Source of the DNA: an uncultured Candidatus Saccharibacteria bacterium
GTDB lineage: Bacteria; Patescibacteriota; Minisyncoccia; Phycocordibacterales; CAIZIN01
Assembly (NCBI GenBank): GCA_964472605.1
Contig: CAYYLG010000001.1
Span: 11,119 to 66,160, forward strand
Length of the DNA stretch: 55,042 bases
Direction of reading: 5' to 3'
Shown here: positions 12,548 through 54,595 of the stretch, piece after piece
How positions within the stretch are numbered: the stretch's first letter is position 1
How the letters are laid out: each line of letters opens with the position of its first letter
The notes under the pieces: generated by a model
Database searches by the model: none
What the model saw: the letters and a program-made list of their open reading frames with translations, nothing else
What the model was told of the DNA's origin: nothing
Made by a program: the position numbers and the translations under genes

Positions 12548-12605
12548 AAGGTAAAAAAGAAAAAGGATAAAATTCCTGTCTTTGGGTAGTGTATAATTAC
12601 ATTGT

Positions 12606-16281: not shown

Positions 16282-17874
16282 ATGATAAAAGGAAAATCTA
16301 GTTTAGATGGAACTCCAATTGAAAAACTGTCTGATTATAGTAGAAAAAAAATAATAAAAATTTGTGATGATTGTAAAATAGAACTACAAATTTCTTATTG
16401 TGATTTAATTTTATCAAGAAAAAAAAGAAAAAGTGATATTGATAGATGTCATAAATGTGCAATGAAAAATCAAAGTGGAGAAAACAATCCTTCTAAAAAA
16501 CAAAATACTAGAAAAAAAATTAGTGAAAAATTAAAAGGTAAAAGTAAAAGATTTAAAAAAGGTTTTAATCCAAGAATACATACAATCAGAATAAACACAG
16601 CAGGTTATGTACTTGTTCATGATTATAAAAATAACAAAAAAGAATTCGAGCACAAATTAATTATGGAAAAAAATATAAAAAGAAAACTAAAAGGGAAAGA
16701 ACAAATCCATCACATTGATGGTGATAAAAAAAATAATAATATAGAAAACTTACTTTTAGTTAATGATGCTTCAGAGCATATGAAAGTTCATTCTCAAATA
16801 GAAAATTTATTTTTTGAATTATATAAAAAAAATATTGTTTATTTTGATAATGAAAACAAATCGTATAAATTAAATCCTCTTATAGAATTGAGTAGGTTTG
16901 AAGAAAGTCTTGGATTTGAAAATATAGCAATAAAACAAAAAAAGCAAATATGTGTTTCAAGATTAGATGTAAATTTGAAAAGTGAAGTAATAAGGGATGT
17001 CTTTTTAGATGTTCCTATGATGGCTGCAAACATGAGTACGGTAACAAATGCTGAATTCATTATTAAGCTTTCAAAATTAGGTGCAATGGGTGTAATGCAT
17101 CGTGCATGTTCTGATGAAGAAATTTTATCTTCTATAGAAAAAATTTCAAAAGAATGTGAATGGGTTGCAGGCTCTATTGGTGTATCAAACAAAGATATTG
17201 ATTTATTTAAAAATATGATTATTAATGGTTGTAATATCATATTTATAGACATTGCACATGGTTATAGTGAAGCTGTTTTTGATATGGCTAAAAAAATAAA
17301 AAAGTATTCTCCCTTAACCAAAGTTGTTGTTGGAAATACAACAAATATAAATATGCTTTATGAATGTTATGAATTTATTGATGCGATAAAAGTTGGTATA
17401 GCTCAAGGTTTTGCTTGTGAAACAAAAAATACTGCTGGTTGTACTGAAAAACAATTTTCTGCTATTTATAAATTTAAAGAAGTTTCTAAAAAACTAGAAG
17501 TTCCAATTATTTCTGATGGAGGAATCAGAGAACCTTCGGATTTCGTTAAAGCTATTGGGGCTGGAGCGAATTCTATCATGGCGGGAAAAATATTTGCAGA
17601 ATGTCCTGAGAGTGCAGCAGAACTTGGAACAGACAAAAATAATAATCCAATAAAAATTTATGCAGGAATGGCATCACAATATATTCAAGAAGCTTGGAAA
17701 GGCGGTGTTAAAGAAGGAACTTGTACTGAAGGTGGTGTTCGGTATTTGTCACTTGGGTTGCCAATTAATAAAATGCTTGAAAAATACTCTGGTGCATTGA
17801 GATCTGGGATAACTTATGCAGGAGCAAAAGATATTAAATCTTATCAAAATAATGTTGAATTTATTAAAATATAA
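16282..17874 (+). CDS. guaC: fusion protein: N-terminal HNH endonuclease domain + GMP reductase/IMPDH-family TIM barrel
   Basis: Residues ~1-190 carry CxxC...CxxC and HHIDGDKKNNNIENLLLVNDASEHMKVH. Residues ~200-530 are collinear with GuaC from its N-terminus (LGFENIAIK, VPMMAANM, IDIAHGYS, VVGN, catalytic-Cys loop GIAQGFACETK, ISDGGIR, IMAG). Confidence 0.75.
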   Translation: MIKGKSSLDGTPIEKLSDYSRKKIIKICDDCKIELQISYCDLILSRKKRKSDIDRCHKCAMKNQSGENNPSKKQNTRKKISEKLKGKSKRFKKGFNPRIHTIRINTAGYVLVHDYKNNKKEFEHKLIMEKNIKRKLKGKEQIHHIDGDKKNNNIENLLLVNDASEHMKVHSQIENLFFELYKKNIVYFDNENKSYKLNPLIELSRFEESLGFENIAIKQKKQICVSRLDVNLKSEVIRDVFLDVPMMAANMSTVTNAEFIIKLSKLGAMGVMHRACSDEEILSSIEKISKECEWVAGSIGVSNKDIDLFKNMIINGCNIIFIDIAHGYSEAVFDMAKKIKKYSPLTKVVVGNTTNINMLYECYEFIDAIKVGIAQGFACETKNTAGCTEKQFSAIYKFKEVSKKLEVPIISDGGIREPSDFVKAIGAGANSIMAGKIFAECPESAAELGTDKNNNPIKIYAGMASQYIQEAWKGGVKEGTCTEGGVRYLSLGLPINKMLEKYSGALRSGITYAGAKDIKSYQNNVEFIKI

Positions 17875-24920: not shown

Positions 24921-25136
24921 ATGATAGAAGCTGGCTTTATAGAAGGCATTCCTGCTCATTACACAAGAAATGGAAAACCAATTTGGTATGAAATTCTTTT
25001 AAAGAATGGAGAAGTTAGAACGGCTTTTCCTTCTGCTGAAACAAGGAATGAAATACTAATTGATTGGGTAGTAGCATCATCTCGGACTGAAATAATTTCC
25101 GATGAACAAGTCTCTGGTTGGAAAATGATCACTTAG
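24921..25136 (+). CDS. hypothetical small protein (71 aa)
   Basis: GGAGG lies upstream of ATG 24921. The track start at 24894 lies inside the -10 box. Confidence 0.55.
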   Translation: MIEAGFIEGIPAHYTRNGKPIWYEILLKNGEVRTAFPSAETRNEILIDWVVASSRTEIISDEQVSGWKMIT

Positions 25137-25150
25137 GAGTAAAGATCTCA

Positions 25151-26467
25151 ATGTCTTACAAGGCAATCGTTACAAGAATCACGAATATTGAACCGCATCC
25201 AAATGCGGATAGACTTCGTGTAACAAAAATCGCAGGATATAATGTCATTATTGGGTTAAATACTCAAATTAATGATCGTGTAATCCTCTTTCCTCCTGAT
25301 GGTCAGCTTTCTGAGATTTATGCAGAAAAGAACGACCTTGTTGGTTATGTTGATGAAGCAACTGGTGAACGTAAAGGTGGTTACTTCGACAAGAACCGTC
25401 GAGTAAAAGCAACTAGACTTCGTTCAATGAAGTCTGAAGCATATGTTGCTTCTATTGATTCACTTTTCTTTACTGGTGTGGATTTGACTTCACTCAAAGA
25501 TGGTTTTGAATTCGATGAAATTAATGGGTTCAAAATCTGTGAGAAGTATTATACACCTGCCACAAGAAAGGCAATGGCTTCTGGCAAAAAACTTCGGAAA
25601 GATAATGAACATTTCCGTAAGCATATTGACACTAATCAGTATCGCATTCGCAAGGGCGATATTCAGAAAGGTGCGCTGATTTTTATCAGCCAGAAGCTTC
25701 ATGGTACTTCTGCTCGTGGTGGTTTTGTTCTGGATACCAAGAAGATTCCACTTAATCTTTTTGCGAAGATGTGGAATGCAACAGCAGGAAAATTCTTTGG
25801 TTTTTTAAAACCAAAAGAGTTTACGGATTTCGATAGGCTTATCGGAACTCGTAATGTGATTCTTGATAATCCAGATTCAGAAAAGGGTTTCTACAGAAAC
25901 GCTGGATCAACGGAAGAATTTCGCTTTAAGGCTTTTGATTCTTTCAAAGACCTTCTTCGTAAAGGCGAGATTGTTTATTCAGAACTCGTTGGATTTGTGG
26001 ATGAGCGACTTCCAATCATGCCCTTTGTTACTACTTCAAAAAGTAGCAATAAAGAGTTGGTGAAAAAGTACGGAAAAGAAATGCGTTATCTTTATAACTG
26101 TGTTCCTGGTCAGTGTGATCAGTACGTTTACAGAATTACTCAAACTTCTGATGACGGACATCCAACTGAACTTTCTTATTACCAAATGGTAAGAAGAGCA
26201 AAAGAACTCGGTTTGAAGACTCCGCCACTTATGAGAGATCCGTTTGTTTTCGATGGTGATTTCGAAAAGCTTGATGAAATCGTTGAAACACTTACGGAAG
26301 GTCCAGACATCATTGATGATTCTCATATCAGAGAAGGTGTCGTAATTCGTGCCGAAAACCCCGATGGAACGACTGTATTTCTAAAGTCTAAGTCATTCGA
26401 CTTCCTTGTTTTGGAAGGTGTGGCAAAAGACAATGCAGATTACGTCGATCTTGAAGAAGTCTCCTAA
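25151..26467 (+). CDS. ATP-dependent RNA ligase with N-terminal OB/tRNA-binding-like domain (DraRnl/NgrRnl, Rnl5-like)
   Basis: N-terminal ITNIEPHPNADRLRVTKIAGYNVIIG. Motif I QKLHGTS, motif IV-like REGVVIR, motif V FLKSKS. AGGAG lies upstream of ATG 25151. Confidence 0.75.
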   Translation: MSYKAIVTRITNIEPHPNADRLRVTKIAGYNVIIGLNTQINDRVILFPPDGQLSEIYAEKNDLVGYVDEATGERKGGYFDKNRRVKATRLRSMKSEAYVASIDSLFFTGVDLTSLKDGFEFDEINGFKICEKYYTPATRKAMASGKKLRKDNEHFRKHIDTNQYRIRKGDIQKGALIFISQKLHGTSARGGFVLDTKKIPLNLFAKMWNATAGKFFGFLKPKEFTDFDRLIGTRNVILDNPDSEKGFYRNAGSTEEFRFKAFDSFKDLLRKGEIVYSELVGFVDERLPIMPFVTTSKSSNKELVKKYGKEMRYLYNCVPGQCDQYVYRITQTSDDGHPTELSYYQMVRRAKELGLKTPPLMRDPFVFDGDFEKLDEIVETLTEGPDIIDDSHIREGVVIRAENPDGTTVFLKSKSFDFLVLEGVAKDNADYVDLEEVS

Positions 26468-30570: not shown

Positions 30571-31437
30571 ATGCCGAAACAATCTTTGGAAGATATGGTT
30601 GCCTCAAAAATGGGGCGAATGGCTTTAAGTCTCTTCAAAAATGATGAAGAGTTTAAAGCTGCAAAAGATGCAGAAGACATTTGTAATCTTTTGAAGAAAC
30701 GTTCTAATGGTGATGTCCAAACGACACCACAAACAGTTCTTCGTATGATTAACAACTGGATTGCTAGTAATAAATGTAAGGCTTCTGATTTTGCAGAGAT
30801 ATTAAAAGCTTCAAAGAAAGGAACTGGACGTAAAGGTAAAATTAGTTTCCGTGAAGAGTTAGAAACTTATTATAAGAAAGATATTTGGAAAGTATTTGGA
30901 GAGAAACTGAGCGGTTGTAAGGATATCGCACAGGCTTTGTCTGTCTTGTCTCATGATTCAAATGGCAAGATTAAAACCAGTGAACAAACATTTCGCAAGA
31001 CAGTTGAAGCTGGAATTGAAGCAAATGAAATTCCAAAAGATGCTTCCTGGATTTCTATTGTACCAAAAAAACGTCGTAGAAGGACTGCTGAAGAAAAAGC
31101 TAAAGAAAGTTCTTCTGTTGAGTCAGACAATCTAGTCAATGCAAAGGTCCATTGCAAAAAATGTGGATTCACAGGTCAAAAGGTAGTCGCTATATATAAC
31201 AAGCATTGTGGTACTGCGCTTAAAGCACAACGCTGTGCTAAGTGTCAGTCGTGGGCAAGTGGTATTCTTACGTTTGAAGCATATGGCAAAGTTGTCAGTA
31301 AAACATGTACAACAGATCCTGATGGTTGTGTTGGTGAGGATTTCATTGATGAGAATTGGAATATTATTCCAAATCCTTTCATGGAATCTCCATCAAAAGA
31401 ACAATTAGATAAAATGAAAAAGAGGAAGGTTATGTAG
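30571..31437 (+). CDS. hypothetical protein with C-terminal zinc ribbons (288 aa)
   Basis: GGGAGAGG lies upstream of the ATG. Contains CKKCG...CAKC. Confidence 0.65.
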   Translation: MPKQSLEDMVASKMGRMALSLFKNDEEFKAAKDAEDICNLLKKRSNGDVQTTPQTVLRMINNWIASNKCKASDFAEILKASKKGTGRKGKISFREELETYYKKDIWKVFGEKLSGCKDIAQALSVLSHDSNGKIKTSEQTFRKTVEAGIEANEIPKDASWISIVPKKRRRRTAEEKAKESSSVESDNLVNAKVHCKKCGFTGQKVVAIYNKHCGTALKAQRCAKCQSWASGILTFEAYGKVVSKTCTTDPDGCVGEDFIDENWNIIPNPFMESPSKEQLDKMKKRKVM

Positions 31438-32936
31438 TGATAGAGAGAGCGCCTATTTTATTAGAGGATATAACTAGAGCAATAAATAGTTTCGAAGATC
31501 AAAAAAATATTATAGATGCTATTTTTTCAGAAATAGATTTTGTAATGAACTCTATTCCTGAATCTTTAATTAAAGATGATAGAGCATTAACTTTTCTTGC
31601 AGCATACTATTCGAATAAAACAGGCTCTAATACATTCTTAACCATTATCTTAGCTCTTTCATCTTTTTTAGGTGAAGATGAAGTTGATTTGTTATTAAAA
31701 GAGTTAGTTTTTTTAAATAGCGAAGATCTTTTAATAATAGAAGACACTATTAAAAATTTTAGAGATAATAATTTTTTATATAACAAGTTTTGTGAATGTG
31801 TTCAAGATGCAAAAAATTTGTGCTATAAAATTAATTTAAACAATAATAATTTTTCCACTAAAGTAGGTAAAGAGTTTTCTATATTCTACCTATTGTCTAT
31901 TGTATTTGGAAAAGAGAAGTTTGATTCAAATACTAAAATTTTAAAAGATTGTTGTATACTAACAAAATTTAAAGATATAAAAAGAAATTCTGTAAATATT
32001 AATGTTGGTAATTTGGTATTTATGGAAGAAAGATCTGTCTTTAGTGATAGGTCATTGTTTAAACCTTTAATACCAAAATCTTTAATGTTAGAAATTAGTG
32101 ATTTGAGCAAGTTCTCCAAATCAGCAGAAGATGCTGTTTTACTTTATTTTGAAGTATCTATTTCAGAAATAGAAAACTGGGAGATAGAGAATGATTGGAA
32201 GGTTTTGTCATTCAAACAGAGGATAAATATTCAAAATATAAAAAGGATAAAGTATGTTGGAGATCTAAGTTTCAAAACAAAGCATATTGAAAATTTCGAG
32301 AATATAAATCTTCCGTTTGATCTTTCTATCTATGATTTAAGTAATACTAAGATTATTTTTCCTTTTTATAACACTATAGAAAGACTTGAAAAAATTTCAA
32401 CCATCAAGCCCAACATAAAACCTGCTTTAAATACTTTAGATAAGGTTTTAGATATTGAGAGGGAATGTATAGTTAGATTTACAAAAATATCTATTTTAAA
32501 AACGTTCAAAGGTTTTGGTAATATAATTAACATATGTCATCAAGGAACATTTGAACCTTTCTTTTTCTTTGGAGAATTAAACTTACAAAAAATTCCTTCC
32601 GTATTCTCAGTTGGTATTCATGATGGAAGAAATTGGATAAATAATGACTTTAATATAAGTAAATTCTATTTAAAAGAAATGTCTGATTTCTGTTTAGACT
32701 TGATAGTTCAGAAACATGAAATTTCCTTATTTATAAAACCTTTTGATAAAAACAATTTTAATCCTATAATGATTAAAAGTGAAAAATTAAAAACAAATCA
32801 TGACTTTACCAAAAGCACTCTTTACCTTGGTTCGGCCAATAAAAATTATCGTTCATCAATAATGGATGTTGATGAGGTCTTTATGTATCATACCCCTCAA
32901 AATATAGGTGATTATTTAACTTCAGAAGTTTGTTAA
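31437..32936 (+). CDS. hypothetical protein with C-terminal LamG/concanavalin-like module (499 aa)
   Basis: GTG start overlaps the upstream TAG. C-terminal motifs VGIHDGRNW and STLYLGSANKNYRSSIMDVDEVFMY. The gene is very AT-rich. Confidence 0.55.
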   Translation: MIERAPILLEDITRAINSFEDQKNIIDAIFSEIDFVMNSIPESLIKDDRALTFLAAYYSNKTGSNTFLTIILALSSFLGEDEVDLLLKELVFLNSEDLLIIEDTIKNFRDNNFLYNKFCECVQDAKNLCYKINLNNNNFSTKVGKEFSIFYLLSIVFGKEKFDSNTKILKDCCILTKFKDIKRNSVNINVGNLVFMEERSVFSDRSLFKPLIPKSLMLEISDLSKFSKSAEDAVLLYFEVSISEIENWEIENDWKVLSFKQRINIQNIKRIKYVGDLSFKTKHIENFENINLPFDLSIYDLSNTKIIFPFYNTIERLEKISTIKPNIKPALNTLDKVLDIERECIVRFTKISILKTFKGFGNIINICHQGTFEPFFFFGELNLQKIPSVFSVGIHDGRNWINNDFNISKFYLKEMSDFCLDLIVQKHEISLFIKPFDKNNFNPIMIKSEKLKTNHDFTKSTLYLGSANKNYRSSIMDVDEVFMYHTPQNIGDYLTSEVC

Positions 32937-32939
32937 ATT

Positions 32940-34163
32940 ATGATAAATACTTTTTTTAAACTGCAAAAAATTAAAAAACTTTTAACTTCTATAGAATTTG
33001 AAGTAGAAAATCCTAGATTTTCGATCTGTAAAAAAATTCTTTTATTGAGAGAATTTTTGTTATCAGCAAAAGTCACACAGGCCCTTTTATTTGGTGGCTT
33101 TGTGAGAGACTATCTTTATTACAGAAGTTGGTATGTACTTAGAAACCTTTATACAAAAGATAGCGGCGATTTCGATATTAGTATTGATGAAAAAGATTTT
33201 TATAAGTTAAAAGCATATTGCAAGTCTGTTAATACTGATAAAAATTATGGATTTGTAATAAAGTATGAAGATGATTCTAAAATTAGTTTATATTTTTATG
33301 ATTTGGAGATGAAAGTAGATTTTTGTACATTTCATCCTAGTGAAACACATTTTTCTTGTTGTACAATGTCTTATGATATTATAAAATTAAAATTTCCTAT
33401 TTCCATAATTAAAAACAAATGGAATATAGATGCTATTTATAACTTTTGTATAGGAAAAAAGATAGTAGCAAATTTTAATAAGACCAAACCACAAGAAATT
33501 TTTACCTTTGATTATTATTCTGATTTATTATCCTTTTCCGAAAAATATAATTTAAAAATTGAAAAAGAAACATTAGAAGATTTTAAATATCTTGATCATT
33601 TTTTGAGCGAAAAAAAGAACTATGCATATCTACCAAAAGAAGTAAATAGATTACTCTCAAACAAAAGAAAAAGAAATTTTGTAGTTAATAATTTTCAAAA
33701 AATAAAAGATTTCTACAGTCTTATTGGTTGTTACAATATAGTAGATTATTTTTCTGAGATAGAGAATACTTTAAACCTTTCAACTTTAAAGAAGGAAAAA
33801 ATAAAAATATTAGAAGACTCAGTATTAGAATATTCTTTAAATACAAAGTATTGTATTAATGATTATGACGCTTTTAATATTTGTAAAAATGAAGATTTAG
33901 CAAACTCTATTTACTTTTATGTTTCTTTTAGGGGTGTTTTTTCTAACAATTTAGAAATCGGATTTCATGATGGTACTGACTGGAGAACAAAGCATTTTTT
34001 TATTCTGAGATCTGAAGAAATAAAATTCAATATTACCAATAATATTATTAAAGTATTTATAGATGAAAATGAAATATTTTCACATAGCTTATATGTTAAT
34101 TCTTTTCTTGTAAATTATGATATTAAAAGAAACAACGATTATGGGGTTTTGAAATGTTTATAA
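32940..34163 (+). CDS. polyA polymerase/CCA-adding-type nucleotidyltransferase head + LamG-like C-terminal module
   Basis: ALLFGGFVRDYL...SGDFDISID matches the GGxVRD...DxD pattern. C-terminal IGFHDGTDW parallels the corresponding segment of ORF 31437. Confidence 0.55.
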   Translation: MINTFFKLQKIKKLLTSIEFEVENPRFSICKKILLLREFLLSAKVTQALLFGGFVRDYLYYRSWYVLRNLYTKDSGDFDISIDEKDFYKLKAYCKSVNTDKNYGFVIKYEDDSKISLYFYDLEMKVDFCTFHPSETHFSCCTMSYDIIKLKFPISIIKNKWNIDAIYNFCIGKKIVANFNKTKPQEIFTFDYYSDLLSFSEKYNLKIEKETLEDFKYLDHFLSEKKNYAYLPKEVNRLLSNKRKRNFVVNNFQKIKDFYSLIGCYNIVDYFSEIENTLNLSTLKKEKIKILEDSVLEYSLNTKYCINDYDAFNICKNEDLANSIYFYVSFRGVFSNNLEIGFHDGTDWRTKHFFILRSEEIKFNITNNIIKVFIDENEIFSHSLYVNSFLVNYDIKRNNDYGVLKCL

Positions 34164-34996
34164 AGAAAACACATAAAATTTACTACAGTCTAAATGAAGT
34201 AATTGAAAAATTTAGAGAAGTTCAACCAAATAAGTTTACTGACATTGGTTGTGGTGTGTGCTTTATAAAATTTAAGGAAGATCTAGACGTAAGTAAGGTT
34301 GAAAAATTTTTAAAATACTATTGTATAGAGAACTCATGGAGCCCAGACCTTCCTTTAGAAACATTTTTTAAATATTTTAATGGAGATAAAGAGGACATTG
34401 AATTTTCAAACTTTATAGTAGATCAGTATAGTAAGTTTGGTTCTATTTCTGGTGGAAATCATTTTATTGAATATGGTAGAACAAGTGATAATCAAAACTA
34501 TTTCATTATTCATTCTGGAAATAATGGAATATATGAATATCTATATAAAAGATTTGGATCTTCAAAAGCAATCTTTATAAGTAAATTAATTGCCATTGAA
34601 AATAGAAAAGAAATAATGAACAAATTAATATATATCTTTAAAATAAGAAATATAGAAAAAAAATTTGATCAAGTTCATTATAATGCAATTAAAGTTGACA
34701 GTAATAGTGATTATAGACTTTTAAGAGGTGTTAGTAGAGCAGACGAATCTAATGGAAATATATTTTTAAATGGTCCTTGGAAAAAATCACTTTTAATTTA
34801 TCCTAACAAAAATGCCGAATATGTATCACATGGATTCGAAGAAATCGTTTTTGGTGAGGTCAATTATAAGAATAAAAAGAATTATTTCAATAAAAATTAT
34901 TTTAGAGAATATAAAGAAATTCCTATTTATGAAGAAATTAAAAGCTATTTAGAATTAAACCCTCTTGTTATTTCAAGACCTATAGGAATCTTTTAA
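34154..34996 (+). CDS. compact, divergent RtcB-like protein (280 aa)
   Basis: RtcB-like motifs occur in order: FTDIGCGV, SGGNHFIEYG, IIHSGNNG, VHYNAI...LLRGVSRA, VSHG, YKEI. It is about 130 aa shorter than E. coli RtcB, and the HGAGR motif is reduced to HGFEE. Confidence 0.5.
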   Translation: MFIKKTHKIYYSLNEVIEKFREVQPNKFTDIGCGVCFIKFKEDLDVSKVEKFLKYYCIENSWSPDLPLETFFKYFNGDKEDIEFSNFIVDQYSKFGSISGGNHFIEYGRTSDNQNYFIIHSGNNGIYEYLYKRFGSSKAIFISKLIAIENRKEIMNKLIYIFKIRNIEKKFDQVHYNAIKVDSNSDYRLLRGVSRADESNGNIFLNGPWKKSLLIYPNKNAEYVSHGFEEIVFGEVNYKNKKNYFNKNYFREYKEIPIYEEIKSYLELNPLVISRPIGIF

Positions 34997-35395
34997 ATGA
35001 AGACTTTAATTGTTATTTTAGGAATGCCTGGTTCTGGTAAAACAAAATTGATAAACAAATTGTTTGATCAAAATGTAAATCATGAAGGCTTTTTAAATAA
35101 AAGCTTTTTAATGATTGAAACAGAAAAATATACTGTAATAGAACACACTGGATTTAATGCAAAAGCAAGACATTTTATTCAAAGTTATGATGGCCCTGTA
35201 ATTCAAATTTTAGTAGATAAGCCTATTCTAAAATGTTTGTATAGTATTTTTTCTGATCTTTTTAAATTTAAAAGAAGTCTTTCTTCAACACTATCCAGAG
35301 TTAAATGTTTAATTTTTTACAAAATAAATGAAAAATATCTAGAATCTGAACAAAAGGCAATAAGGGTAATCTTTAATGATAATTTTAAACCCTAA
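34997..35395 (+). CDS. small P-loop NTPase/kinase (132 aa)
   Basis: Walker A GMPGSGKT at residues 9-16. Confidence 0.6.
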   Translation: MKTLIVILGMPGSGKTKLINKLFDQNVNHEGFLNKSFLMIETEKYTVIEHTGFNAKARHFIQSYDGPVIQILVDKPILKCLYSIFSDLFKFKRSLSSTLSRVKCLIFYKINEKYLESEQKAIRVIFNDNFKP

Positions 35396-37337
35396 AAAAT
35401 TTAGCTTTGAAATAAATAATTTTACTGATATTCTACACCTTACTGAAGGTGAAGTTATTACCTTTTTTAATTCTAAAAAAGAAGTTATTGCGCACTTGTC
35501 TAAAGTACGAAACGGATGTTATAAAGAATACGCTTATTCATTTAACTTGGGAACAAAGGGTAGATGGAGTAAAAACACTTGCTTCTTTAAAGCAGAGAGT
35601 AATATTGAATTTGAGATATTAGATAAGAATTGTATTTCAATTAATGGAAACAAAATAATATCAAAATTCTTTATAGATAACTTTAAAGAAGAGGTTTATG
35701 TTGTAATTGGAAAAAGAAAAGAATTAGAATTTAAAGGGAACGATCTTAGCATTCATATCGATATCAATAATTTTTTATATGAAAAATTAGAAAATTATGA
35801 AGATTTAGAAAATAAAAAATATCAGTTTGACTTTGGATTTGCGGCAGGAGTTGGAGATATTATTTGGGGATTGTGTAATAAAAAACATAATCTCTTTTTG
35901 TCAAATATGACATCAACAAAAAGAGGTAGAGATGCTGTTTTAGAATTTTATTCAGACATATACCATCTTGATATGGGCTATCTAAAACAACAGTATTATG
36001 ATTTTAAAAGATTTTATACCATTTTAAGTGAAGGCATAGAGTTAGATCCTGATCTAGAAATTAATTTTTGTGGACAAAATGTTAGATTAGAGGCTGGAAT
36101 ACCCTTCACTAATGAAGAAATAAAAAAAATAAGATTTCATTTAGAGTCAAGTAATTTTATAAAAATATTAGATTTTAATCATGATGCTGTTGAAGTAAGA
36201 ACTGGTGGAATCTTAGCAAATGTACTTTCAAATTTAGGTTATAAATCTATTCAAATAGGCGAGTATTCTAATTTTGATACAATCAATAAAGAGAATTATA
36301 TTGATACAAAAGACAACGTTGTTGATGCATATAGGACATTAAATTCAGCAAGATTTGTTTATGGTGAAGCATGTGGTTTCAATATATATGCTAGTCTTCT
36401 TGGAATTGATAATTTTGGTGTTTTGTATAGTGGTTTAGGCGGATTATCACTAACACTAGGGGACTTTAACCACATAAAAGAAGGCAAGACAAAAATTCAT
36501 GTAATAAATTTAGAAAATTCCTATAAAGATTATGGCTTGGAGGATGAAAGATTAAGAACTTCTAAAAGAATGTCCAATTATTTAAGTAATTGGAAAAACT
36601 CATATCATGAAGATGGTAATGTAATTTGTCCTGTTTGTTTCTGTAAGCAAAAAAAAGAAGATCACCTACAATATGAATGTAATTATTGTGGAGTGTTTGT
36701 AACTAAAACAAATAATAAGTTTGAATATAACGATAATTATTTAAAAATATACGATACATATCCATACGAAGAAATGAATAAGATAAGACAAACATTCATA
36801 ACAAATGGAAAAACTATTTTAGATTATGGATGTGGAAAAAGACATTTTGTAAATCATCTTTTAAATAATGGATATAACGCTTATGGATATGATGTAGTCC
36901 CAAATGAAGAGAATTTAAATTGGAGAGAATTGTTTGATAGAACTTATGATTACATTACTTTTTTCGATTCATTAGAACACATTGAAAATATTCATCAAGA
37001 GTTAATTCCACTTTTATGTTTGACAAAAAAAGTTATAATAACTATACCAAATGTAATTGAAGAAGCTACTTTAGACGATATTAAAAAATACAAACACTAT
37101 AAACCTGGAGAACACATACTACACTTTAAAAGAAAAACTTTAGAAATACTTATGTCAATGCACGGTTTCTCTTTAGAAAGTATTAGTTTTATAGAAAATG
37201 ATATTAGAAAATTCTCCTCAATGGGATTTAGTGTAGCTACATATATTTTTAAAGATTCAAGATCGTTTCATGTTCCATTTGAAATAAGACCCAAAATTAT
37301 AAAGGATTACTTTAAATATGAGAAACACTTTGTATGA
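35376..37337 (+). CDS. multidomain protein: N-terminal LamG-like module, central GT9-like (?) region, Cys4 ribbon, C-terminal class I SAM methyltransferase
   Basis: MTase motif I ILDYGCGKRHF, then YDYITFFDSLEHIEN. Cys4 ribbon CPVCFC...CNYCG. AAGVGDIIWG and GEACGFNIYASLLG weakly resemble glycosyltransferase family 9. Confidence 0.55.
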   Translation: MIILNPKKFSFEINNFTDILHLTEGEVITFFNSKKEVIAHLSKVRNGCYKEYAYSFNLGTKGRWSKNTCFFKAESNIEFEILDKNCISINGNKIISKFFIDNFKEEVYVVIGKRKELEFKGNDLSIHIDINNFLYEKLENYEDLENKKYQFDFGFAAGVGDIIWGLCNKKHNLFLSNMTSTKRGRDAVLEFYSDIYHLDMGYLKQQYYDFKRFYTILSEGIELDPDLEINFCGQNVRLEAGIPFTNEEIKKIRFHLESSNFIKILDFNHDAVEVRTGGILANVLSNLGYKSIQIGEYSNFDTINKENYIDTKDNVVDAYRTLNSARFVYGEACGFNIYASLLGIDNFGVLYSGLGGLSLTLGDFNHIKEGKTKIHVINLENSYKDYGLEDERLRTSKRMSNYLSNWKNSYHEDGNVICPVCFCKQKKEDHLQYECNYCGVFVTKTNNKFEYNDNYLKIYDTYPYEEMNKIRQTFITNGKTILDYGCGKRHFVNHLLNNGYNAYGYDVVPNEENLNWRELFDRTYDYITFFDSLEHIENIHQELIPLLCLTKKVIITIPNVIEEATLDDIKKYKHYKPGEHILHFKRKTLEILMSMHGFSLESISFIENDIRKFSSMGFSVATYIFKDSRSFHVPFEIRPKIIKDYFKYEKHFV

Positions 37338-37683
37338 AGAATTGACAAAAGATACAAGTACTTTAGGACTATCAATTAATGAGATAGCTTATATCGTTAA
37401 ATCATGGGGAGAAGACCGACAATTTGATACCCCTACTTCTTTAAAAACAAGAGAAGAAAGGATATTAATGAATGAAAAGCTTATGCTTGTAGTCACAGAA
37501 GTAGCAGAGGCATGTGAGGCTTTAAGAAAACTAGATATTGACGAAATGGAATTTGAGTTGGCCGATGTTGTAATCAGAGTTTTGAATCTGGCAGGATCGC
37601 TAGGCATTGATCTTGACAAGAGAATTGCTGATAAAATGGAAATCAATAGAGGAAGACCTATTAAGCATGGAAAAGACTGCTGA
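37318..37683 (+). CDS. mazG: MazG-like NTP pyrophosphohydrolase
   Basis: Motifs LVVTEVAEACEALRK and EFELADVVIRVLNLAGSLGIDLDKRIADKMEINRGR. Confidence 0.75.
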   Translation: MRNTLYEELTKDTSTLGLSINEIAYIVKSWGEDRQFDTPTSLKTREERILMNEKLMLVVTEVAEACEALRKLDIDEMEFELADVVIRVLNLAGSLGIDLDKRIADKMEINRGRPIKHGKDC

Positions 37684-51964: not shown

Positions 51965-52228
51965 ATGAAAATGTATATCATTGTAGATAATATTACCGGA
52001 CAAGCACTATCCAAATACTCTCCTCATTCAGAAGACCTCTGGGAATGGGATGGAGAATATATTGATGACTTTGGTGAGTATATGACTAATGTCGAAATTT
52101 TCGGCGCAGAAGAGGCAGATAAAGCAATTGAACACCTAATACAAGTCTTCGATCAAACAGATGGTCAAGATACCGACTTTGAGAAAGTAGAAGTTGAAAA
52201 AGCTAAAGTTTATAAATTGGCAGAATAA
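51965..52228 (+). CDS. acidic hypothetical small protein (no family motif)
   Basis: AAGGA lies upstream of the ATG; 87 aa. Confidence 0.5.
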   Translation: MKMYIIVDNITGQALSKYSPHSEDLWEWDGEYIDDFGEYMTNVEIFGAEEADKAIEHLIQVFDQTDGQDTDFEKVEVEKAKVYKLAE

Positions 52229-52458
52229 TGGAATTCGATTTCCCTAAACCAGAAAACCATACAGAATTCTTTCTTTTTAAAAGAAAGCATCACCCAATTC
52301 AATGTTATGAATTGGTTCTACATTCAAAGAAAGATTTAGAAGAATTGATACAAAAAGCTAAATTAAATAGTGAATGGTATGCGTATGTAGATACCCATGA
52401 AGAAATGATAAATTTTTTTGCAAAAGAAGTATGGAGAAATAAATATGCCATTAACTGA
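52228..52458 (+). CDS. WxFP-family member
   Basis: MEFDFPKPENH. Confidence 0.6.
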   Translation: MEFDFPKPENHTEFFLFKRKHHPIQCYELVLHSKKDLEELIQKAKLNSEWYAYVDTHEEMINFFAKEVWRNKYAIN

Positions 52459-52651
52459 AAAGGAAATAGAATTAACAGAAACACTCGGTAGTGTTTGGAA
52501 TGAGTTTCTTAAATTAGAACCAAAACATCCCCTAGATAATCATGAATTCGTTGATGCCATACACAAAGCACAACACCTAATCATGATTCGAGCGGCTAGA
52601 AGAGATCATCCAGATATCTTTTATACGGAAAAGAAAAATGAAAACAACTGA
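52445..52651 (+). CDS. hypothetical small protein (no family motif)
   Basis: GGAG lies upstream of ATG 52445. Confidence 0.45.
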   Translation: MPLTEKEIELTETLGSVWNEFLKLEPKHPLDNHEFVDAIHKAQHLIMIRAARRDHPDIFYTEKKNENN

Positions 52652-53075
52652 TTGGGACTTTCCAAACCCAAATCTACTAAGATCAACCAAAGTACCAAAG
52701 TTCTTTGATACCATACACACAGAACAACCAGAGAAATGGGCCTACCAATTTAAAGGTAGGCTCTATTTTAGTAGAGATACAGAAGCCACACTCTTTACAA
52801 GATTTGATGGCGAAAACTTCAGAGAAGAACAAGAAACTCAATTCAAATTCTATGGAGAAGTCCTCCTAGATCAACTACAAGAAGCCTATAATGATACCGG
52901 CTCGCTCGCAATTAAAAAAGTTATGCAAGATAAGTATTTTTTAGAATTTCTAGAAAAATTAAAAGATGAAAATACTAGAAACAAATTAGCAAAAAAAGCG
53001 CAAGAAGAACAAGAGAATAGGTTCTACTCACCAATAAACAAACCAATTGATTGGCAAATACCAAACGAGGAATAA
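52638..53075 (+). CDS. WxFP-family member (subfamily A); second motif copy at its C-terminus
   Basis: MKTTDWDFPNPN, an AYNDTG motif, and a C-terminal IDWQIPNEE. Confidence 0.6.
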   Translation: MKTTDWDFPNPNLLRSTKVPKFFDTIHTEQPEKWAYQFKGRLYFSRDTEATLFTRFDGENFREEQETQFKFYGEVLLDQLQEAYNDTGSLAIKKVMQDKYFLEFLEKLKDENTRNKLAKKAQEEQENRFYSPINKPIDWQIPNEE

Positions 53076-53078
53076 ATT

Positions 53079-53369
53079 ATGAATTGGCTACTACCTGAAA
53101 GCAAAAACTTTATCAACTCTCCAGAACAATATAGAAATCTACTTGAAGACTTTATGGATAGAAAAATCACAACAGAACAATATATGAATGCTATCCCACA
53201 AGAACAAAAAGATACCATCAATCAAATGGTAGAAGAAAAAGGACTTGAATTAGATCTTACTATTGCTACTATTCATTATGTCGTAACTAAGAATATTAAA
53301 AAATTAGATCAATTTTTGGCCGAAAAAGCTGTAGAGGATCTGGAAAATGAAGATTTGCAAGATTTGTGA
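53079..53369 (+). CDS. WxFP-family member (subfamily B)
   Basis: MNWLLPESKNF and EQYMNAIPQE. Confidence 0.55.
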   Translation: MNWLLPESKNFINSPEQYRNLLEDFMDRKITTEQYMNAIPQEQKDTINQMVEEKGLELDLTIATIHYVVTKNIKKLDQFLAEKAVEDLENEDLQDL

Positions 53370-53679
53370 ATGGGACTTTCCATCAGAAGAACTCTATAAA
53401 GAACAATTTTTTAGTAAATTCACAAACAATTTAGCAGAATCATTACTAAATAGATTAAATACTTCCTCATTTTATTATGAAAAACTTACTGATTCAGAAC
53501 TGTTAGAATGTTATGAACAAGGATATATAACAACAGTTAACTTACTTAACATAATACCAGCCGAAGCAAGAATTGAGGCTGTAAGATCAAATAGAACACA
53601 TGGAAATTTAACTCAAGATGATAGACAAAATATCGCCAATACAATTCGAAGATCAATGGGAATATCCAGAACCCCATAA
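53347..53679 (+). CDS. WxFP-family member (subfamily B)
   Basis: CEWDFPSEELY and NLLNIIPAE. Confidence 0.55.
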   Translation: MKICKICEWDFPSEELYKEQFFSKFTNNLAESLLNRLNTSSFYYEKLTDSELLECYEQGYITTVNLLNIIPAEARIEAVRSNRTHGNLTQDDRQNIANTIRRSMGISRTP

Positions 53680-53851
53680 CTTCTTTAATCGAATTAAATA
53701 CAAAAAAGAAAATGTCTTGGGAATAGGGGATGGAAAACCTGTCTTCTTCGATCTCACACTTAGATATGATGAAAAAGTAGACGAATTCTATATGCATCAA
53801 ATTAGACACCTGGAAAATCAATTAGCTAAGGAATTTGAATACTATGATTAA
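53618..53851 (+). CDS. WxFP-family member
   Basis: EDQWEYPEPHNF. The only ATG gives a 62-nt overlap with the upstream gene. Confidence 0.5.
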   Translation: MIDKISPIQFEDQWEYPEPHNFFNRIKYKKENVLGIGDGKPVFFDLTLRYDEKVDEFYMHQIRHLENQLAKEFEYYD

Positions 53852-54068
53852 AATCGCAGACGAATGGAGCTTACCTAACTTCAAAAACTTCGCTACACCC
53901 GAAGACTACGAAAGAATAGCAGAACTCTACCACACAAAAGAACTCTCAACATATCAAGTCTTTCAACTACTACCTAAAATGGCTGTACATAAACTTAAAA
54001 AAAGCATCCTGTTTAAAACAACGTATACAGGAGCAAGTTACCTCAGCCTCTTACCACAAGAAAAATGA
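53844..54068 (+). CDS. WxFP-family member (subfamily B)
   Basis: ADEWSLPNFKNF and YQVFQLLPK. Confidence 0.55.
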   Translation: MIKIADEWSLPNFKNFATPEDYERIAELYHTKELSTYQVFQLLPKMAVHKLKKSILFKTTYTGASYLSLLPQEK

Positions 54069-54136
54069 GAACTTCTAAACCAATTATATGAAATTAGAAC
54101 CAATAAAATACCTATAGAATTTTTCGGAGAATAAAA

Positions 54137-54538: not shown

Positions 54539-54595
54539 ATAGAATTTATTTTAAATAATTTCTGATTTTTTGCGCAAAAGTAAAAGGTTACTCAA

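What the first reader, a model, noticed from the sequence alone, without database searches (positions are those of the whole stretch)
31437..37337. Very AT-rich five-gene operon: mini-RtcB, P-loop kinase, CCA/polyA-type nucleotidyltransferase and methyltransferase linked by a shared LamG-like module (candidate novel RNA-modification/repair system)
**Operon features**
- The block is visibly more AT-rich than its surroundings.
- It is translationally coupled: a GTG/TAG overlap, 10-nt and 20-nt overlaps, and a 0-nt junction.

**Products**
- A 499-aa protein ending in a LamG-like module (VGIHDGRNW ... LYLGS...MDVDEVFMY).
- A GGxVRD...DxD nucleotidyltransferase carrying the same module (IGFHDGTDW).
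- A 280-aa protein with the RtcB motif series in order (DIGCG, GGNHFIE, HSG..G, H.NA...R..SRA, HG, YKEI). It is about one third shorter than E. coli RtcB and lacks the AGR of HGAGR.
- A 132-aa Walker-A kinase-like protein.
- A 653-aa protein with a LamG-like N-terminus, a GT9-like centre, a Cys4 ribbon and a C-terminal class I SAM methyltransferase.

**Interpretation**
- Kinase, 3'-P ligase, nucleotidyltransferase and methyltransferase together echo the healing, sealing and junction-marking logic of Pnkp/Hen1 and RtcB systems.
- Here they appear in a new architecture with a common targeting domain.
- An alternative reading is a glycan or virion-surface modification module.
- MazG follows immediately downstream.
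Basis: partly seen in the sequence, partly recalled or inferred. Interest (0 to 1): 0.8.

Follow-up and report, generated by a model that had tools for sequence, protein, structure and literature searches.

The report
Phage mini-RtcB, nucleotidyltransferase, P-loop gene triad
A large uncultured phage carries a compact RtcB-type RNA ligase that is always flanked by a divergent CCA/poly(A)-type nucleotidyltransferase and a tiny P-loop NTPase; this three-gene set recurs in several unrelated phages, fits no existing protein family model, and is most likely a new form of RNA (tRNA) repair kit.

Summary
The five ORFs, their overlaps and the AT-rich block (25.2% GC against 31.7% elsewhere) are all present as described.

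**The 280-aa protein.** It belongs to a small family of "mini-RtcB" proteins of 256-280 aa.
- It keeps every RtcB metal ligand, the GTP-contacting Asn and Glu, and the His nucleophile.
- It lacks the N-terminal ~60 aa, a helical insert, the Arg that binds the 5'-OH strand (Asn here), and the Arg of HGAGR (Glu here).

**The other proteins.**
- The 407-aa protein is probably a divergent class II nucleotidyltransferase (hhalign P ~1e-4; shuffled controls score about half).
- It shares a short C-terminal module with the 499-aa protein, but not with the 653-aa protein.
- The LamG-like, GT9-like and "kinase" labels have no support.

**Main new result.** The conserved unit is three genes, not five: nucleotidyltransferase, mini-RtcB and P-loop protein.
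- They occur in this order in every related metagenomic locus that has enough flanking sequence.
- The 499-aa gene recurs once.
- A methyltransferase gene recurs nearby, but it is not homologous between loci.

**Reading.** RNA end repair as a counter-defence is the best explanation, at moderate confidence. I class it as a new variant of a known kind.

The parts
32940..34163 (+). B: 407-aa divergent class II (CCA/poly(A)-polymerase-like) nucleotidyltransferase, first gene of the conserved triad. Head and neck span about aa 47-265 (nt 33078-33734). Motifs: GGFVRD at aa 52, DFD at aa 77-79, conserved VD at aa 126-127.
   Evidence: Full-length homologues lie directly upstream of mini-RtcB in L084 (E 3e-24) and L287 (E 7e-18). 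C-terminal fragments lie in the same position in L290 and L293. hhalign against 80 viral class II NTases gives score 38-40, P 7e-5 to 1.4e-4 and prob 53-63%, colinear over B 47-265. Controls score at most 19. There is no Pfam, PHROG, NCBIfam or PDB sequence hit. The AF2 model is unusable at pLDDT 38.7.
33867..34163 (+). C-terminal beta-rich module of B (aa ~310-407: FNIC..SIYFY..LEIGFHDGTDW...), shared with A
   Evidence: The module is conserved in all B-family members. It resembles A aa 362-416. The low-confidence AF2 model shows only beta strands here. It has no Pfam hit, LamG included.
34154..34996 (+). C: 280-aa mini-RtcB, second gene of the triad. It keeps D30, C33, N102, H103, E106, H120, H175 and H226, which correspond to PhoRtcB D95, C98, N202, H203, E206, H234, H329 and H404.
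   Evidence: PHROG tRNA-splicing ligase, E 7e-9. tblastn to phage RtcB genes covers aa 13-178. A family of 256-280-aa relatives exists. The 30-sequence alignment with ordinary RtcBs gives the invariant columns. An HMM built from the C-terminal half alone finds ordinary RtcBs and aligns the NR, HN and HG motifs. AF2 gives pLDDT 82.9; Foldseek finds only RtcB/RTCB in the PDB (E 1e-7, TMq up to 0.60) and viral RtcB in BFVD (E 2e-11, TMq 0.66). Residue roles come from PMC9745838 and PMC8051266.
34997..35395 (+). D: 132-aa minimal P-loop NTPase, third gene of the triad. Walker A GMPGSGKT at aa 9-16, family motif EHTG.N at aa 49-54, Walker-B-like ILVD at aa 71-75.
   Evidence: Homologues directly follow mini-RtcB in L084, L085, L287, L290, L292 and L286/L293, with E between 1e-12 and 0.014. 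The family alignment is A7. Only Walker-A-level similarity appears in Pfam, NCBIfam, PADLOC and the PDB.
31437..32936 (+). A: 499-aa protein of unknown function, an accessory gene. Its C-terminal part (aa ~362-499, nt 32520-32936) shares a module with the C-terminus of B.
   Evidence: A homologue lies upstream of the triad in L287/L288 (E 1e-21 to 3e-21 over A 263-494) but is absent in L084. It has no Pfam, PHROG, NCBIfam, PDB or phage-genome hit.
35376..37337 (+). E: 653-aa fusion protein, an accessory gene. Aa 1-410 are unknown. A Cys4 ribbon spans aa 418-438 (nt 36627-36689). A class I SAM methyltransferase domain spans aa 475-602 (nt 36798-37181).
   Evidence: Methyltransf_23, E 3e-14 and 53 bits against a cut-off of 27; PHROG methyltransferase, E 1e-11. 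Only aa ~440-628 have relatives in phage genomes. There is no homologue in related loci. A non-homologous SAM methyltransferase gene does lie two genes after the triad in L287 and three genes before it in L084.
37318..37683 (+). MazG-like nucleotide pyrophosphohydrolase, a neighbour that overlaps E by 20 nt
   Evidence: Pfam MazG-like and MazG, E 4e-7 to 7e-7; PHROG pyrophosphatase, E 6e-17. A MazG-like gene also follows the triad in L085.
25118..26467 (+). Context: full-length ATP-dependent RNA ligase gene about 5 kb upstream (a 5'-P/3'-OH sealing enzyme)
   Evidence: PHROG phrog_968 RNA ligase, E 5e-55; Pfam RNA_ligase PF09414, E 1e-8.

Best explanation
The functional core is a three-gene cassette found in large phages. 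It comprises B (a divergent class II, CCA/poly(A)-polymerase-like nucleotidyltransferase with a C-terminal beta module), C (a compact RtcB-family enzyme) and D (a ~120-130-aa P-loop NTPase).

**Shown**
- C keeps the complete binuclear-metal site, the GTP-contacting Asn and Glu, and the histidine that RtcB guanylylates. It can therefore very probably form an enzyme-(His)-GMP adduct and activate a nucleic-acid 3'-phosphate.
- B keeps the GG..R[DE]...DxD...D catalytic set of a template-independent nucleotidyltransferase.
- The three genes are syntenic and overlapping in every related locus that has flanks.

**Inferred**
- The cassette repairs RNA, most likely tRNA, that host defence nucleases have broken.
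- B would rebuild lost 3' nucleotides, and C would seal or activate 3'-phosphate ends.
- D would supply an NTP-dependent step: end phosphorylation, or loading and turnover of the complex.
- In this phage the cassette is extended by A, which shares B's C-terminal module and may be an adaptor. It is also extended by E, a zinc-ribbon/SAM-methyltransferase fusion that may mark the repaired RNA.
- The cassette sits among nucleotide-metabolism and counter-defence genes: dCMP deaminase, MazG, NUDIX and an ATP-dependent RNA ligase.
For: **C is an RtcB relative**
- Sequence, family-profile and fold evidence agree.
- Across all 30 aligned sequences (6 mini-family members, ~30-37% identical to C, plus 24 ordinary RtcBs) these columns are invariant: G101 N102 H103 F104 H120 G122 R151 H175 G201 G207 H226 G227. 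D30, C33 and E106 are near-invariant.
- These positions are the PhoRtcB residues with established roles: M1 ligands C98/H234/H329, M2 ligands D95/C98/H203, N202, E206 and the H404 nucleophile (PMC9745838, PMC8051266).

**B is probably a class II nucleotidyltransferase**
- The profile-profile match is colinear over motif A, a motif-B-like block and the neck.
- Scores are 38-40, against at most 19 in 40 column shuffles, 12.8 for the reversed alignment and 12.1 for an unrelated family.

**Synteny**
- D follows C in 7 of 7 lineages with downstream sequence.
- B precedes C in 5 of 5 lineages with enough upstream sequence.
- Loci: window, L084, L085, L287-289, L290, L292, L286/L293.

**Context**
- An RNA ligase gene lies 5 kb upstream in the window.
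- In L084 the cassette lies next to Thg1, NUDIX and an NAD-salvage cluster.
- Phage RtcB, CCA-adding enzymes, RlaP nucleotidyltransferases and Thg1 are already read as counter-defence RNA repair (PMC7824862).
- RtcB operons with a Pol-beta nucleotidyltransferase are known (PMC12776372).
Against: - No biochemical data exist for any member.
- C lacks the counterpart of PhoRtcB Arg238 (EcoRtcB Arg189), which holds the 5'-OH strand; it is an invariant Asn here. The R189A mutation slows sealing 200-fold (PMC8051266).
- C also lacks the Arg of HGAGR (mostly Glu here), the N-terminal ~60 aa with the MPDxHxGxG motif, and the segment that carries guanine-binding Lys480. True ligation is therefore uncertain.
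- B lacks the RRD and EDxxR motifs of CCA-adding enzymes. It reaches only 53-63% hhalign probability, has no Pfam hit, and its AF2 model failed.
- D shows nothing beyond a P-loop.
- The substrate could be RNA or DNA, and host or phage. It is inferred from context only.
- The AF2 model of C was built on an alignment that contained ordinary RtcBs, so the fold match is not fully independent.
Confidence: 0.5

Rival explanations
1. The cassette modifies ends rather than repairing breaks. The mini-RtcB would only guanylylate (cap) 3'-phosphate ends, or transfer NMP to another acceptor. B would add a tail and a methyltransferase would add a mark. Together they would protect or tag phage (or host) RNA or DNA ends rather than rejoin them.
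For: The residues lost in the mini family are the ones tied to 5'-OH strand binding and sealing. PhoRtcB Arg238 becomes an invariant Asn, and the Arg of HGAGR becomes Glu. EcoRtcB R189A slows sealing 200-fold but slows RNAppG formation only 3-fold (PMC8051266). RtcB can stably cap DNA 3'-phosphate ends as DNAppG (PMC8051266, introduction). The metal/GTP/His centre is fully kept.
Against: Partner proteins (B, A or D) could supply strand binding. The surrounding genes (RNA ligase in the window, Thg1 in L084) point to repair. No end-capping pathway with such a gene set is known.
Confidence: 0.2
2. The block belongs to a nucleotide or DNA-base modification pathway. A P-loop kinase, a nucleotidyltransferase and a methyltransferase would act on nucleotides or on phage DNA, alongside dCMP deaminase and MazG. 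The RtcB-like protein would have been recruited for a non-RNA role.
For: dCMP deaminase, MazG, NUDIX and IMPDH-like genes surround the block. A MazG-like gene follows the triad in L085 as well. E's best NCBIfam hit is a DNA-phosphorothioation-associated methyltransferase, but only weakly: E 1e-5 and 24 bits against a cut-off of 150.
Against: No member matches a known hypermodification enzyme family. RtcB chemistry needs a polynucleotide 3'-phosphate. The closest relatives of B are RNA 3'-end nucleotidyltransferases. E and MazG are not conserved partners of the triad.
Confidence: 0.08
3. The genes are fast-evolving AT-rich ORFans with no joint activity. On this view the mini-RtcB is a decaying, catalytically dead remnant, and the gene order simply reflects inheritance from a common phage ancestor.
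For: The RtcB core carries large deletions. B and C each have very few relatives among the billions of proteins searched, and A has none in phage genomes. Pfam and NCBIfam scores for C fall far below the curated cut-offs.
Against: At only ~30-37% identity, every catalytic residue of C and the acidic triad of B stay invariant. The flanking genes differ completely between loci while B-C-D stays intact and overlapping. That pattern is what selection on a functional cassette produces.
Confidence: 0.1
4. This is a glycan or virion-surface modification module.
Against: No glycosyltransferase or LamG profile hit at E <= 10. There are no structural genes nearby. The conserved core consists of nucleic-acid enzymes.
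Confidence: 0.03

Closest known systems
RtcB 3'-phosphate/5'-hydroxyl RNA ligases (Pfam PF01139; E. coli RtcB, P. horikoshii RtcB, phage RtcB genes, PHROG 1075)
   Same: The order of catalytic motifs and the residues are the same: D/C (DIGCG), N-H-F-x-E (GGNHFIE), H (HSG), NR, H(N) and the HG nucleophile. The predicted fold matches only RtcB structures.
   Different: C is about 30% shorter (256-280 aa against 336-444 aa for the bacterial and phage RtcBs, and 481-530 aa for the archaeal and human chains). It has no N-terminal MPDxHxGxG segment and no helical insert after HSGSR. Arg238(Pho) is replaced by Asn, HGAGR by HGx[DE]E, and the TLDE.P.AYK segment is missing. It scores below the Pfam and NCBIfam cut-offs (14.9 bits against 27). 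It is always flanked by the B and D genes.
RtcB operons with a Pol-beta nucleotidyltransferase (RlaP, PF10127), and phage RNA-repair sets (RtcB or Rnl plus CCA-adding enzyme, PNK, Thg1)
   Same: The logic is the same: an RNA sealing enzyme is genetically linked to a template-independent nucleotidyltransferase that could restore lost 3' nucleotides (PMC12776372, PMC7824862).
   Different: The nucleotidyltransferase here is not RlaP; it has no PF10127 hit. It looks like a divergent class II (PolyA_pol-like) enzyme with an extra C-terminal module. A dedicated mini P-loop protein is an obligate third partner. No RtcA, RtcR or archease is present.
Class II nucleotidyltransferases (CCA-adding enzymes and bacterial poly(A) polymerase, Pfam PolyA_pol PF01743)
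   Same: B keeps GG-x-x-R-D/E ... DxD (motif A), a downstream conserved Asp, an 'xFTxxS' block where RRDFTINA sits, and a neck helix block. All are colinear with the family profile.
   Different: B has an ~11-residue insert between GGFVRD and DxD. It lacks RRD and the EDxxR nucleotide-selection motif, has no HD or body/tail domains, and has a beta-rich C-terminal module instead. Neither Pfam nor PDB sequence search detects it.
Pnkp/Hen1 bacterial RNA repair and T4 Pnkp/Rnl1
   Same: The idea is the same: healing, sealing and possibly methyl-marking of broken RNA, encoded as a cassette.
   Different: There is no homology. The sealing enzyme is of the RtcB type, not an ATP-dependent ligase. E matched other NCBIfam methyltransferase models but no Hen1 model. 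D has no PNK-specific features. A 5'-kinase would block an RtcB-type reaction.

Membership tests
RtcB (PF01139) | Binuclear metal site: Asp and Cys (DxxCG), His (GNHF), His (HxGS), His (HN) | tested here: met
   D30 and C33 are near-invariant, and H103, H120 and H175 are invariant, in the 30-sequence alignment with ordinary RtcBs. They map to PhoRtcB D95, C98, H203, H234 and H329 (PMC9745838).
RtcB (PF01139) | Histidine nucleophile in the HG(AGR) motif | tested here: met
   H226-G227 are invariant. An HMM built from the C-terminal half alone aligns this motif with HGAGR of ordinary RtcBs. The Arg of the motif is not kept; the sequence here is HGFEE.
RtcB (PF01139) | GTP contacts: Asn202, Glu206 and Lys480 (Pho numbering) | tested here: inconclusive
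   N102 and E106 are kept. The segment that carries Lys480 (TLDE.P.AYK) has no clear counterpart. The family instead conserves N-Y-x-R at aa 248-251, just downstream of a stretch of low model confidence (pLDDT < 50 at 233-238 and 243-245).
RtcB (PF01139) | Arg that binds the 5'-OH strand (PhoRtcB Arg238 / EcoRtcB Arg189) | tested here: not met
   This position is an invariant Asn (N124) in the mini family. The role of the Arg is described in PMC8051266.
RtcB (PF01139) | Full-length architecture, including the N-terminal segment with MPDxHxGxG | tested here: not met
   The mini family starts about 25 residues before DIGCG, so the N-terminal ~60 aa of bacterial RtcBs are absent.
RtcB (PF01139) | Curated profile score | tested here: not met
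   Pfam RtcB gives 14.9 bits against a cut-off of 27. NCBIfam RtcB models give 17-21 bits against cut-offs of 272-1050. PHROG 1075 gives E 7e-9 but covers only aa 29-133.
RtcB (PF01139) | RtcB fold | tested here: met
   The AF2 model has pLDDT 82.9 and pTM 0.85. Foldseek finds only RtcB/RTCB chains in the PDB (E 1e-7 to 3e-6; the next hit is E 0.08) and viral RtcB in BFVD (E 2e-11, TMq 0.66). Caveat: the input alignment contained ordinary RtcBs.
Class II nucleotidyltransferase (PolyA_pol, PF01743) | Motif A, GGxVRD...DxD, plus a third carboxylate | tested here: met
   GGF[VC]R[DE] and D[FI]DI are conserved in all three full-length members. The V-D at aa 126-127 is also conserved.
Class II nucleotidyltransferase (PolyA_pol, PF01743) | Profile-level similarity over head and neck | tested here: inconclusive
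   hhalign against 80 viral family members gives score 38-40, P 7e-5 to 1.4e-4 and prob 53-63%, colinear over B 47-265. The 40 shuffled controls reach at most 19. There is no Pfam hit at E <= 10 and no PDB sequence hit.
Class II nucleotidyltransferase (PolyA_pol, PF01743) | Motif B (RRD) and motif D (EDxxR), which select the nucleotide in CCA-adding enzymes | tested here: not met
   The aligned positions read KLKF / SRKF and FTFDYYSDLL / FRGAEVLHFV. That these motifs define the family is my own knowledge.
Class II nucleotidyltransferase (PolyA_pol, PF01743) | Pol-beta nucleotidyltransferase fold | tested here: inconclusive
   The AF2 model, built from only 2 sequences, has pLDDT 38.7. Its secondary-structure order (helix, strand, GG, helix, strand with DxD, helix, three strands) is compatible with the fold but proves nothing.
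P-loop polynucleotide/nucleotide kinases | Walker A plus kinase-specific lid and substrate motifs | tested here: inconclusive
   Walker A and a Walker-B-like hhhh[DE] are present, plus the family-specific motif EHTG.N. All database matches stop at the Walker A helix.
Class I SAM-dependent methyltransferase | Rossmann methyltransferase domain above the curated score | tested here: met
   E aa 475-602 match Methyltransf_23 at 53.4 bits against a cut-off of 27, E 3e-14. Motif I, LDYGCGK, is at aa 482.
Hen1 RNA 3'-terminal 2'-O-methyltransferase | Match to a Hen1 family model | tested here: not met
   No Hen1 model appears among the NCBIfam hits of E at E <= 1. The best hit is a dnd-related methyltransferase at 24 bits.
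LamG / concanavalin-like lectin domain | Profile or fold match | tested here: not met
   There is no Laminin_G-type Pfam hit for A, B, E or the excised modules at E <= 10.
GT9 glycosyltransferase | Profile match in E aa ~140-410 | tested here: not met
   There is no Glyco_transf_9 hit or any other glycosyltransferase hit at E <= 10, and no PDB sequence hit.

The most novel reading that the evidence does not exclude
The strictly conserved P-loop partner D may be the long-postulated polynucleotide 3'-kinase. Nucleotidyltransferase B would rebuild nucleotides lost from a damaged RNA 3' end and leave a 3'-OH. D would phosphorylate that 3'-OH. The mini-RtcB, which needs a 3'-phosphate, would then activate and seal it. 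In this reading the triad is a self-contained 'rebuild, 3'-phosphorylate, seal' pathway. It would resolve the nucleotidyltransferase/RtcB end-incompatibility noted for RlaP-RtcB operons (PMC12776372: an RNA 3'-kinase 'is yet to be discovered').
Probability: 0.12. Interest if true: 0.85.

Novelty: new variant of a known kind. Interest (0 to 1): 0.62.

Why it matters
RtcB is the only known enzyme family that seals 3'-phosphate and 5'-OH ends. A natural version about 30% shorter, with the whole catalytic centre kept but the known strand-binding arginines lost, helps in two ways:
- It defines the minimal RtcB core.
- It suggests that partner proteins can supply substrate binding or even the sealing step.

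The obligate linkage to a nucleotidyltransferase and a P-loop NTPase gives a concrete candidate for how ends extended by a nucleotidyltransferase (3'-OH) become RtcB substrates (3'-P). That question is raised openly in the RlaP work (PMC12776372).

If the cassette counters tRNA-cleaving defence systems, it adds a new, compact tool to the phage counter-defence repertoire. It could also serve as a small RNA ligase or capping enzyme in the laboratory.

Tried and rejected
**Searches that found nothing**
- DNA-level search of the block against GenBank phages.
- tblastn of A and B against phages.
- IMG/VR scans with B and with three mini-RtcB relatives.
- An IMG/VR scan with the mini-RtcB profile, which returned only ordinary RtcBs.
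- Both metagenome scans. The B patterns gave no relatives.
- The GTDB genome scan with B.
- PDB sequence searches with A, B, C and E.
- PADLOC, apart from P-loop noise.

**Structure prediction**
- AF2 on B with a two-sequence alignment failed (pLDDT 38.7), so no fold search was run on it. No quota was left for A or E.

**Ideas tested and dropped**
- E shares the A/B module: rejected.
- E is a fusion of the two genes downstream of the triad in L287: rejected, with no significant similarity.
- A is a second nucleotidyltransferase: rejected (hhalign P 0.2).

**Uninformative**
- The promoter and terminator scan; site counts did not exceed those in shuffled sequence.

Full report
**1. What is in the sequence**

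The window is part of a large, very novel phage genome. Identical copies of the 280-aa gene lie on contigs of up to 206 kb. All genes in the region are on the + strand.

The five ORFs exist exactly as listed:

| Gene | Coordinates | Length |
|---|---|---|
| A | 31437-32936 | 499 aa, GTG start |
| B | 32940-34163 | 407 aa |
| C | 34154-34996 | 280 aa |
| D | 34997-35395 | 132 aa |
| E | 35376-37337 | 653 aa |

MazG follows at 37318-37683.
- a 1-nt TAG/GTG overlap with the upstream gene
- a 3-nt spacer between A and B
- a 10-nt overlap between B and C
- a 0-nt junction between C and D
- 20-nt overlaps at D/E and at E/MazG

The block has 25.2% GC, against 31.7% for the rest of the window. It is the lowest-GC 5.9-kb stretch of the 55 kb. 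GC drops from 36.8% to 22.4% at 31.5 kb.

The tight spacing continues into the neighbouring genes, so it does not delimit an operon. The promoter and terminator scan was uninformative.

**2. The 280-aa protein is a real, compact RtcB**

Standard family models barely detect it:
- Pfam RtcB gives 14.9 bits against a cut-off of 27.
- PHROG 1075 'tRNA splicing ligase' gives E 7e-9, but only over aa 29-133.
- tblastn against GenBank phages hits annotated RtcB genes only over aa ~13-178.

An exhaustive phmmer search of 1.84 billion representative proteins found a small family of full-length relatives. They are 256-272 aa long and 31-37% identical, with E from 1e-23 to 1e-12. Fragments were also found. 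All other hits were RtcBs of ordinary length that matched only the first ~170 residues.

I aligned 6 family members with 24 ordinary RtcBs. Invariant columns are G101 N102 H103 F104 H120 G122 R151 H175 G201 G207 H226 G227. Near-invariant columns include D30, C33 and E106.

Published P. horikoshii structures assign roles to the matching residues (PMC9745838, PMC8051266):
- the ligands of metal 1 (Cys98, His234, His329)
- the ligands of metal 2 (Asp95, Cys98, His203)
- Asn202, which contacts the GTP phosphates and the 5'-OH
- Glu206, which reads the guanine
- His404, the guanylylated nucleophile

Three further lines of evidence agree:
- An HMM built from the C-terminal half of the mini family alone (aa 136-280) still retrieves ordinary RtcB ORFs, at E 1e-6 to 5e-4 among 7,259 ORFs. 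It aligns NR with NR, HN with HN and HG with HGAGR.
- An AlphaFold2 model reached pLDDT 82.9 and pTM 0.85.
- That model matches only RtcB/RTCB chains in the PDB (E 1e-7 to 3e-6, TMq up to 0.60; the next hit is E 0.08). In BFVD it matches a 370-aa viral RtcB (E 2e-11, TMq 0.66).

One caveat applies to the fold result: the alignment used for modelling contained ordinary RtcBs.

**3. What the mini-RtcB has lost**

- The N-terminal ~60 residues of bacterial RtcBs, which include the MPDxHxGxG motif.
- A 50-70-residue helical insert after HSGSR.
- The segment that carries guanine-binding Lys480.
- The counterpart of PhoRtcB Arg238 / EcoRtcB Arg189, which is an invariant Asn (N124). That arginine grips the first two phosphodiesters of the 5'-OH strand. 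Mutating it slows sealing 200-fold but slows RNAppG formation only 3-fold (PMC8051266).
- The Arg of HGAGR, which is replaced mostly by Glu (HGx[DE]E).

The chemistry of histidine nucleotidylation and 3'-phosphate activation therefore looks intact. How the 5'-OH strand is held, and whether it is sealed at all, remains open.

**4. The conserved unit is a triad**

I looked up the contigs that encode the other family members. The table shows what lies around the mini-RtcB homologue (C') in each locus.

| Locus | Upstream of C' | Downstream of C' |
|---|---|---|
| L084 (105-kb phage contig) | 401-aa homologue of B (26% identity over the full length, E 3e-24), overlapping C' | 131-aa P-loop protein |
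| L287/L288/L289 | partial homologue of A (E 1e-21 to 3e-21), a 46-aa ORF, then a 405-aa B homologue (E 7e-18) | 124-aa D homologue (E 2e-12), a 385-aa unknown, then a 368-aa SAM methyltransferase |
| L290 | C-terminal fragment of a B homologue | D homologue |
| L293 | C-terminal fragment of a B homologue | D homologue |
| L085 | no upstream sequence (contig starts inside C') | D homologue, then a MazG-like gene |
| L286 | only 91 nt of upstream sequence | D homologue (partial) |
| L292 | no upstream sequence (contig starts inside C') | D homologue |

In summary, D follows C in 7 of 7 lineages with downstream sequence. B precedes C in 5 of 5 lineages with enough upstream sequence. The remaining neighbours differ from locus to locus:
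- A recurs in one other lineage and is absent in L084, where a NUDIX gene precedes B.
- E has no detectable homologue in any related locus.
- A SAM methyltransferase gene of a different family lies near the triad in L287 and L084.

The triad is somewhat more AT-rich than its flanks in the other phages too.

None of these proteins occurs in GenBank phages or IMG/VR. The one NCBI copy is annotated 'hypothetical protein'.

**5. B is probably a class II nucleotidyltransferase**

All three full-length B proteins share GGF[VC]R[DE], then 16-19 residues, then D[FI]DI, and later a conserved V-D. Pfam, PHROG, NCBIfam and PDB sequence searches find nothing.

To test the relationship I collected 80 viral CCA/poly(A)-polymerase-family head and neck domains and compared profiles with hhalign:
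- Score 38-40, P 7e-5 to 1.4e-4, probability 53-63%.
- The greedy alignment is colinear over B 47-265. It places GGFVRD on GGAVRD, DFD on DxD, an 'xFTxxS' block on RRDFTINA, and B 186-222 on the neck helix.
- The best of 40 column-shuffled controls scored 19.0. The reversed alignment scored 12.8, and an unrelated family scored 12.1.

The RRD and EDxxR motifs that select nucleotides in CCA-adding enzymes are not kept. B is therefore unlikely to be an ordinary CCA-adding enzyme.

The AF2 model of B, built from only two sequences, failed at pLDDT 38.7, so the fold is untested.

**6. The shared module, D and E**

*Shared module.* A and the B family share a short C-terminal block (NIC..FF..VG.HDG..W). 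The evidence is moderate:
- Smith-Waterman z = 6.6 against the L084 B protein, with 0 of 500 shuffles reaching the score. Against B itself z is 2.7.
- hhalign P ~4e-4.
- blastp E 1e-5 against the L293 fragment.

E does not share the module (z < 0, hhalign P 0.28). No LamG or glycosyltransferase profile matches any of these proteins.

*D.* Seven members were aligned. They share a Walker A motif, a family-specific EHTG.N motif and a Walker-B-like strand. Every database match stops at the Walker A helix, so calling it a kinase is a guess.

*E.* It has a Cys4 ribbon at aa 418-438 and a bona fide class I SAM methyltransferase domain (53 bits against a cut-off of 27). It matched no Hen1 model.

**7. 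How it most likely works**

*Shown:* an RtcB-type active centre, a probable template-independent nucleotidyltransferase and a P-loop NTPase are inherited as one overlapping cassette in diverse large phages.

*Inferred:* the cassette acts on broken RNA ends, most likely tRNAs cut by host defence nucleases.
- B would restore lost 3' nucleotides.
- C would activate and seal 3'-phosphate ends.
- D would provide an NTP-dependent step.

The context fits this reading. The window also encodes a full-length ATP-dependent RNA ligase (phrog_968, E 5e-55), plus MazG, NUDIX and dCMP deaminase. In L084 the triad sits beside Thg1 and an NAD-salvage cluster. Comparative work on jumbo phages treats such gene sets as counter-defence and RNA repair (PMC7824862).

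A nucleotidyltransferase linked to RtcB has a precedent in the RlaP-RtcB operons. The authors of that work point out a problem: the nucleotidyltransferase leaves a 3'-OH but RtcB needs a 3'-phosphate, and an RNA 3'-kinase 'is yet to be discovered' (PMC12776372). A 5'-kinase would work against an RtcB-type enzyme. This makes D an attractive but unproven candidate for that missing activity.

The main rival reading follows from the missing sealing-related arginines. On that view the mini-RtcB caps or tags 3'-phosphate ends rather than joining them.

**8. Verdict**

Correct:
- the mini-RtcB
- the CCA/poly(A)-type nucleotidyltransferase
- the methyltransferase
- co-occurrence of the genes in other genomes

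Not supported:
- a five-gene unit
- a common LamG-like domain shared by A, B and E
- a GT9-like centre in E
- a defined kinase

The finding is a new variant of a known kind, namely RtcB-centred RNA repair cassettes. It includes a mini-RtcB family that current family models do not capture and a strictly conserved three-gene architecture. Function is inferred only; no experiment exists for any member.

Noticed in passing
window 25118-26467 (+): A full-length ATP-dependent RNA ligase gene (PHROG 968, E 5e-55; Pfam RNA_ligase) lies 5 kb upstream of the triad. The phage therefore carries both a 5'-P/3'-OH sealing enzyme and an RtcB-type enzyme.
   Followed up: partly
window 16282-17874 (+): A 530-aa ORF combines an HNH_3 endonuclease motif (aa 138-163) with an IMP dehydrogenase/GMP reductase domain (aa 210-530, E 7e-62). 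This could be an HNH insertion or fusion in a purine-metabolism gene.
   Followed up: no
window 11531-12683 (+): An SPFH/Band-7 protein gene (E 7e-10) is followed directly by the only tRNA gene in the window, tRNA-Met (CAT), at 12606-12683.
   Followed up: no
window 1924-3294 (+): A 456-aa ORF carries a helicase-associated (HA) domain and an I-HmuI-like NUMOD domain. It is a likely homing endonuclease and lies next to a 700-aa ResIII/DEAD helicase gene at 3982-6084.
   Followed up: no
L084 1-8825 (Logan SRR33452760, 105-kb contig): Upstream of the triad in this other phage lie Thg1 (a tRNA 5'-end repair polymerase), NAPRTase, an HD_4 protein, an NMNAT-like CTP_transf_like protein, NAD synthase, a Methyltransf_24 protein, HNH and NUDIX. 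Together they form an NAD-salvage and RNA-repair island.
   Followed up: partly
L085 1162-3160 (NCBI MAG GCA_030651415.1, contig JAUSFJ010000354.1): A MazG-like gene follows the C-D pair. An IF3-like gene (IF3_N and IF3_C domains) lies on the opposite strand of this phage-like contig, which was binned as 'bacterium'.
   Followed up: no
L084 8818-11204; L287 731-3060; L085 1-1051: The triad has lower GC than its flanks in other phages too: 39.4% against 43-45% in L084, 25.3% against 31.9% in L287, and 27.7% against 29.7% in L085. This may reflect lateral spread of the cassette or its Asn/Lys/Ile/Phe/Tyr-rich composition.
   Followed up: partly
window 52000-55042: GC skew turns negative after ~53 kb, following 52 kb of uniformly positive skew. 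No long + strand ORFs occur there. This suggests a switch in gene orientation or replication direction near the window end.
   Followed up: no
window 30571-31437 (+): The 288-aa gene that overlaps the start of A by 1 nt has a Cys-rich C-terminal part with weak double-zinc-ribbon matches (E ~0.1). At 36.7% GC it lies just outside the AT-rich block.
   Followed up: no
L287 477-617 and L288 880-1020: A 46-aa ORF between the A homologue and the B homologue resembles A aa 427-457 (E 0.004). It may be a small duplicated or frameshifted piece of the A gene.
   Followed up: no
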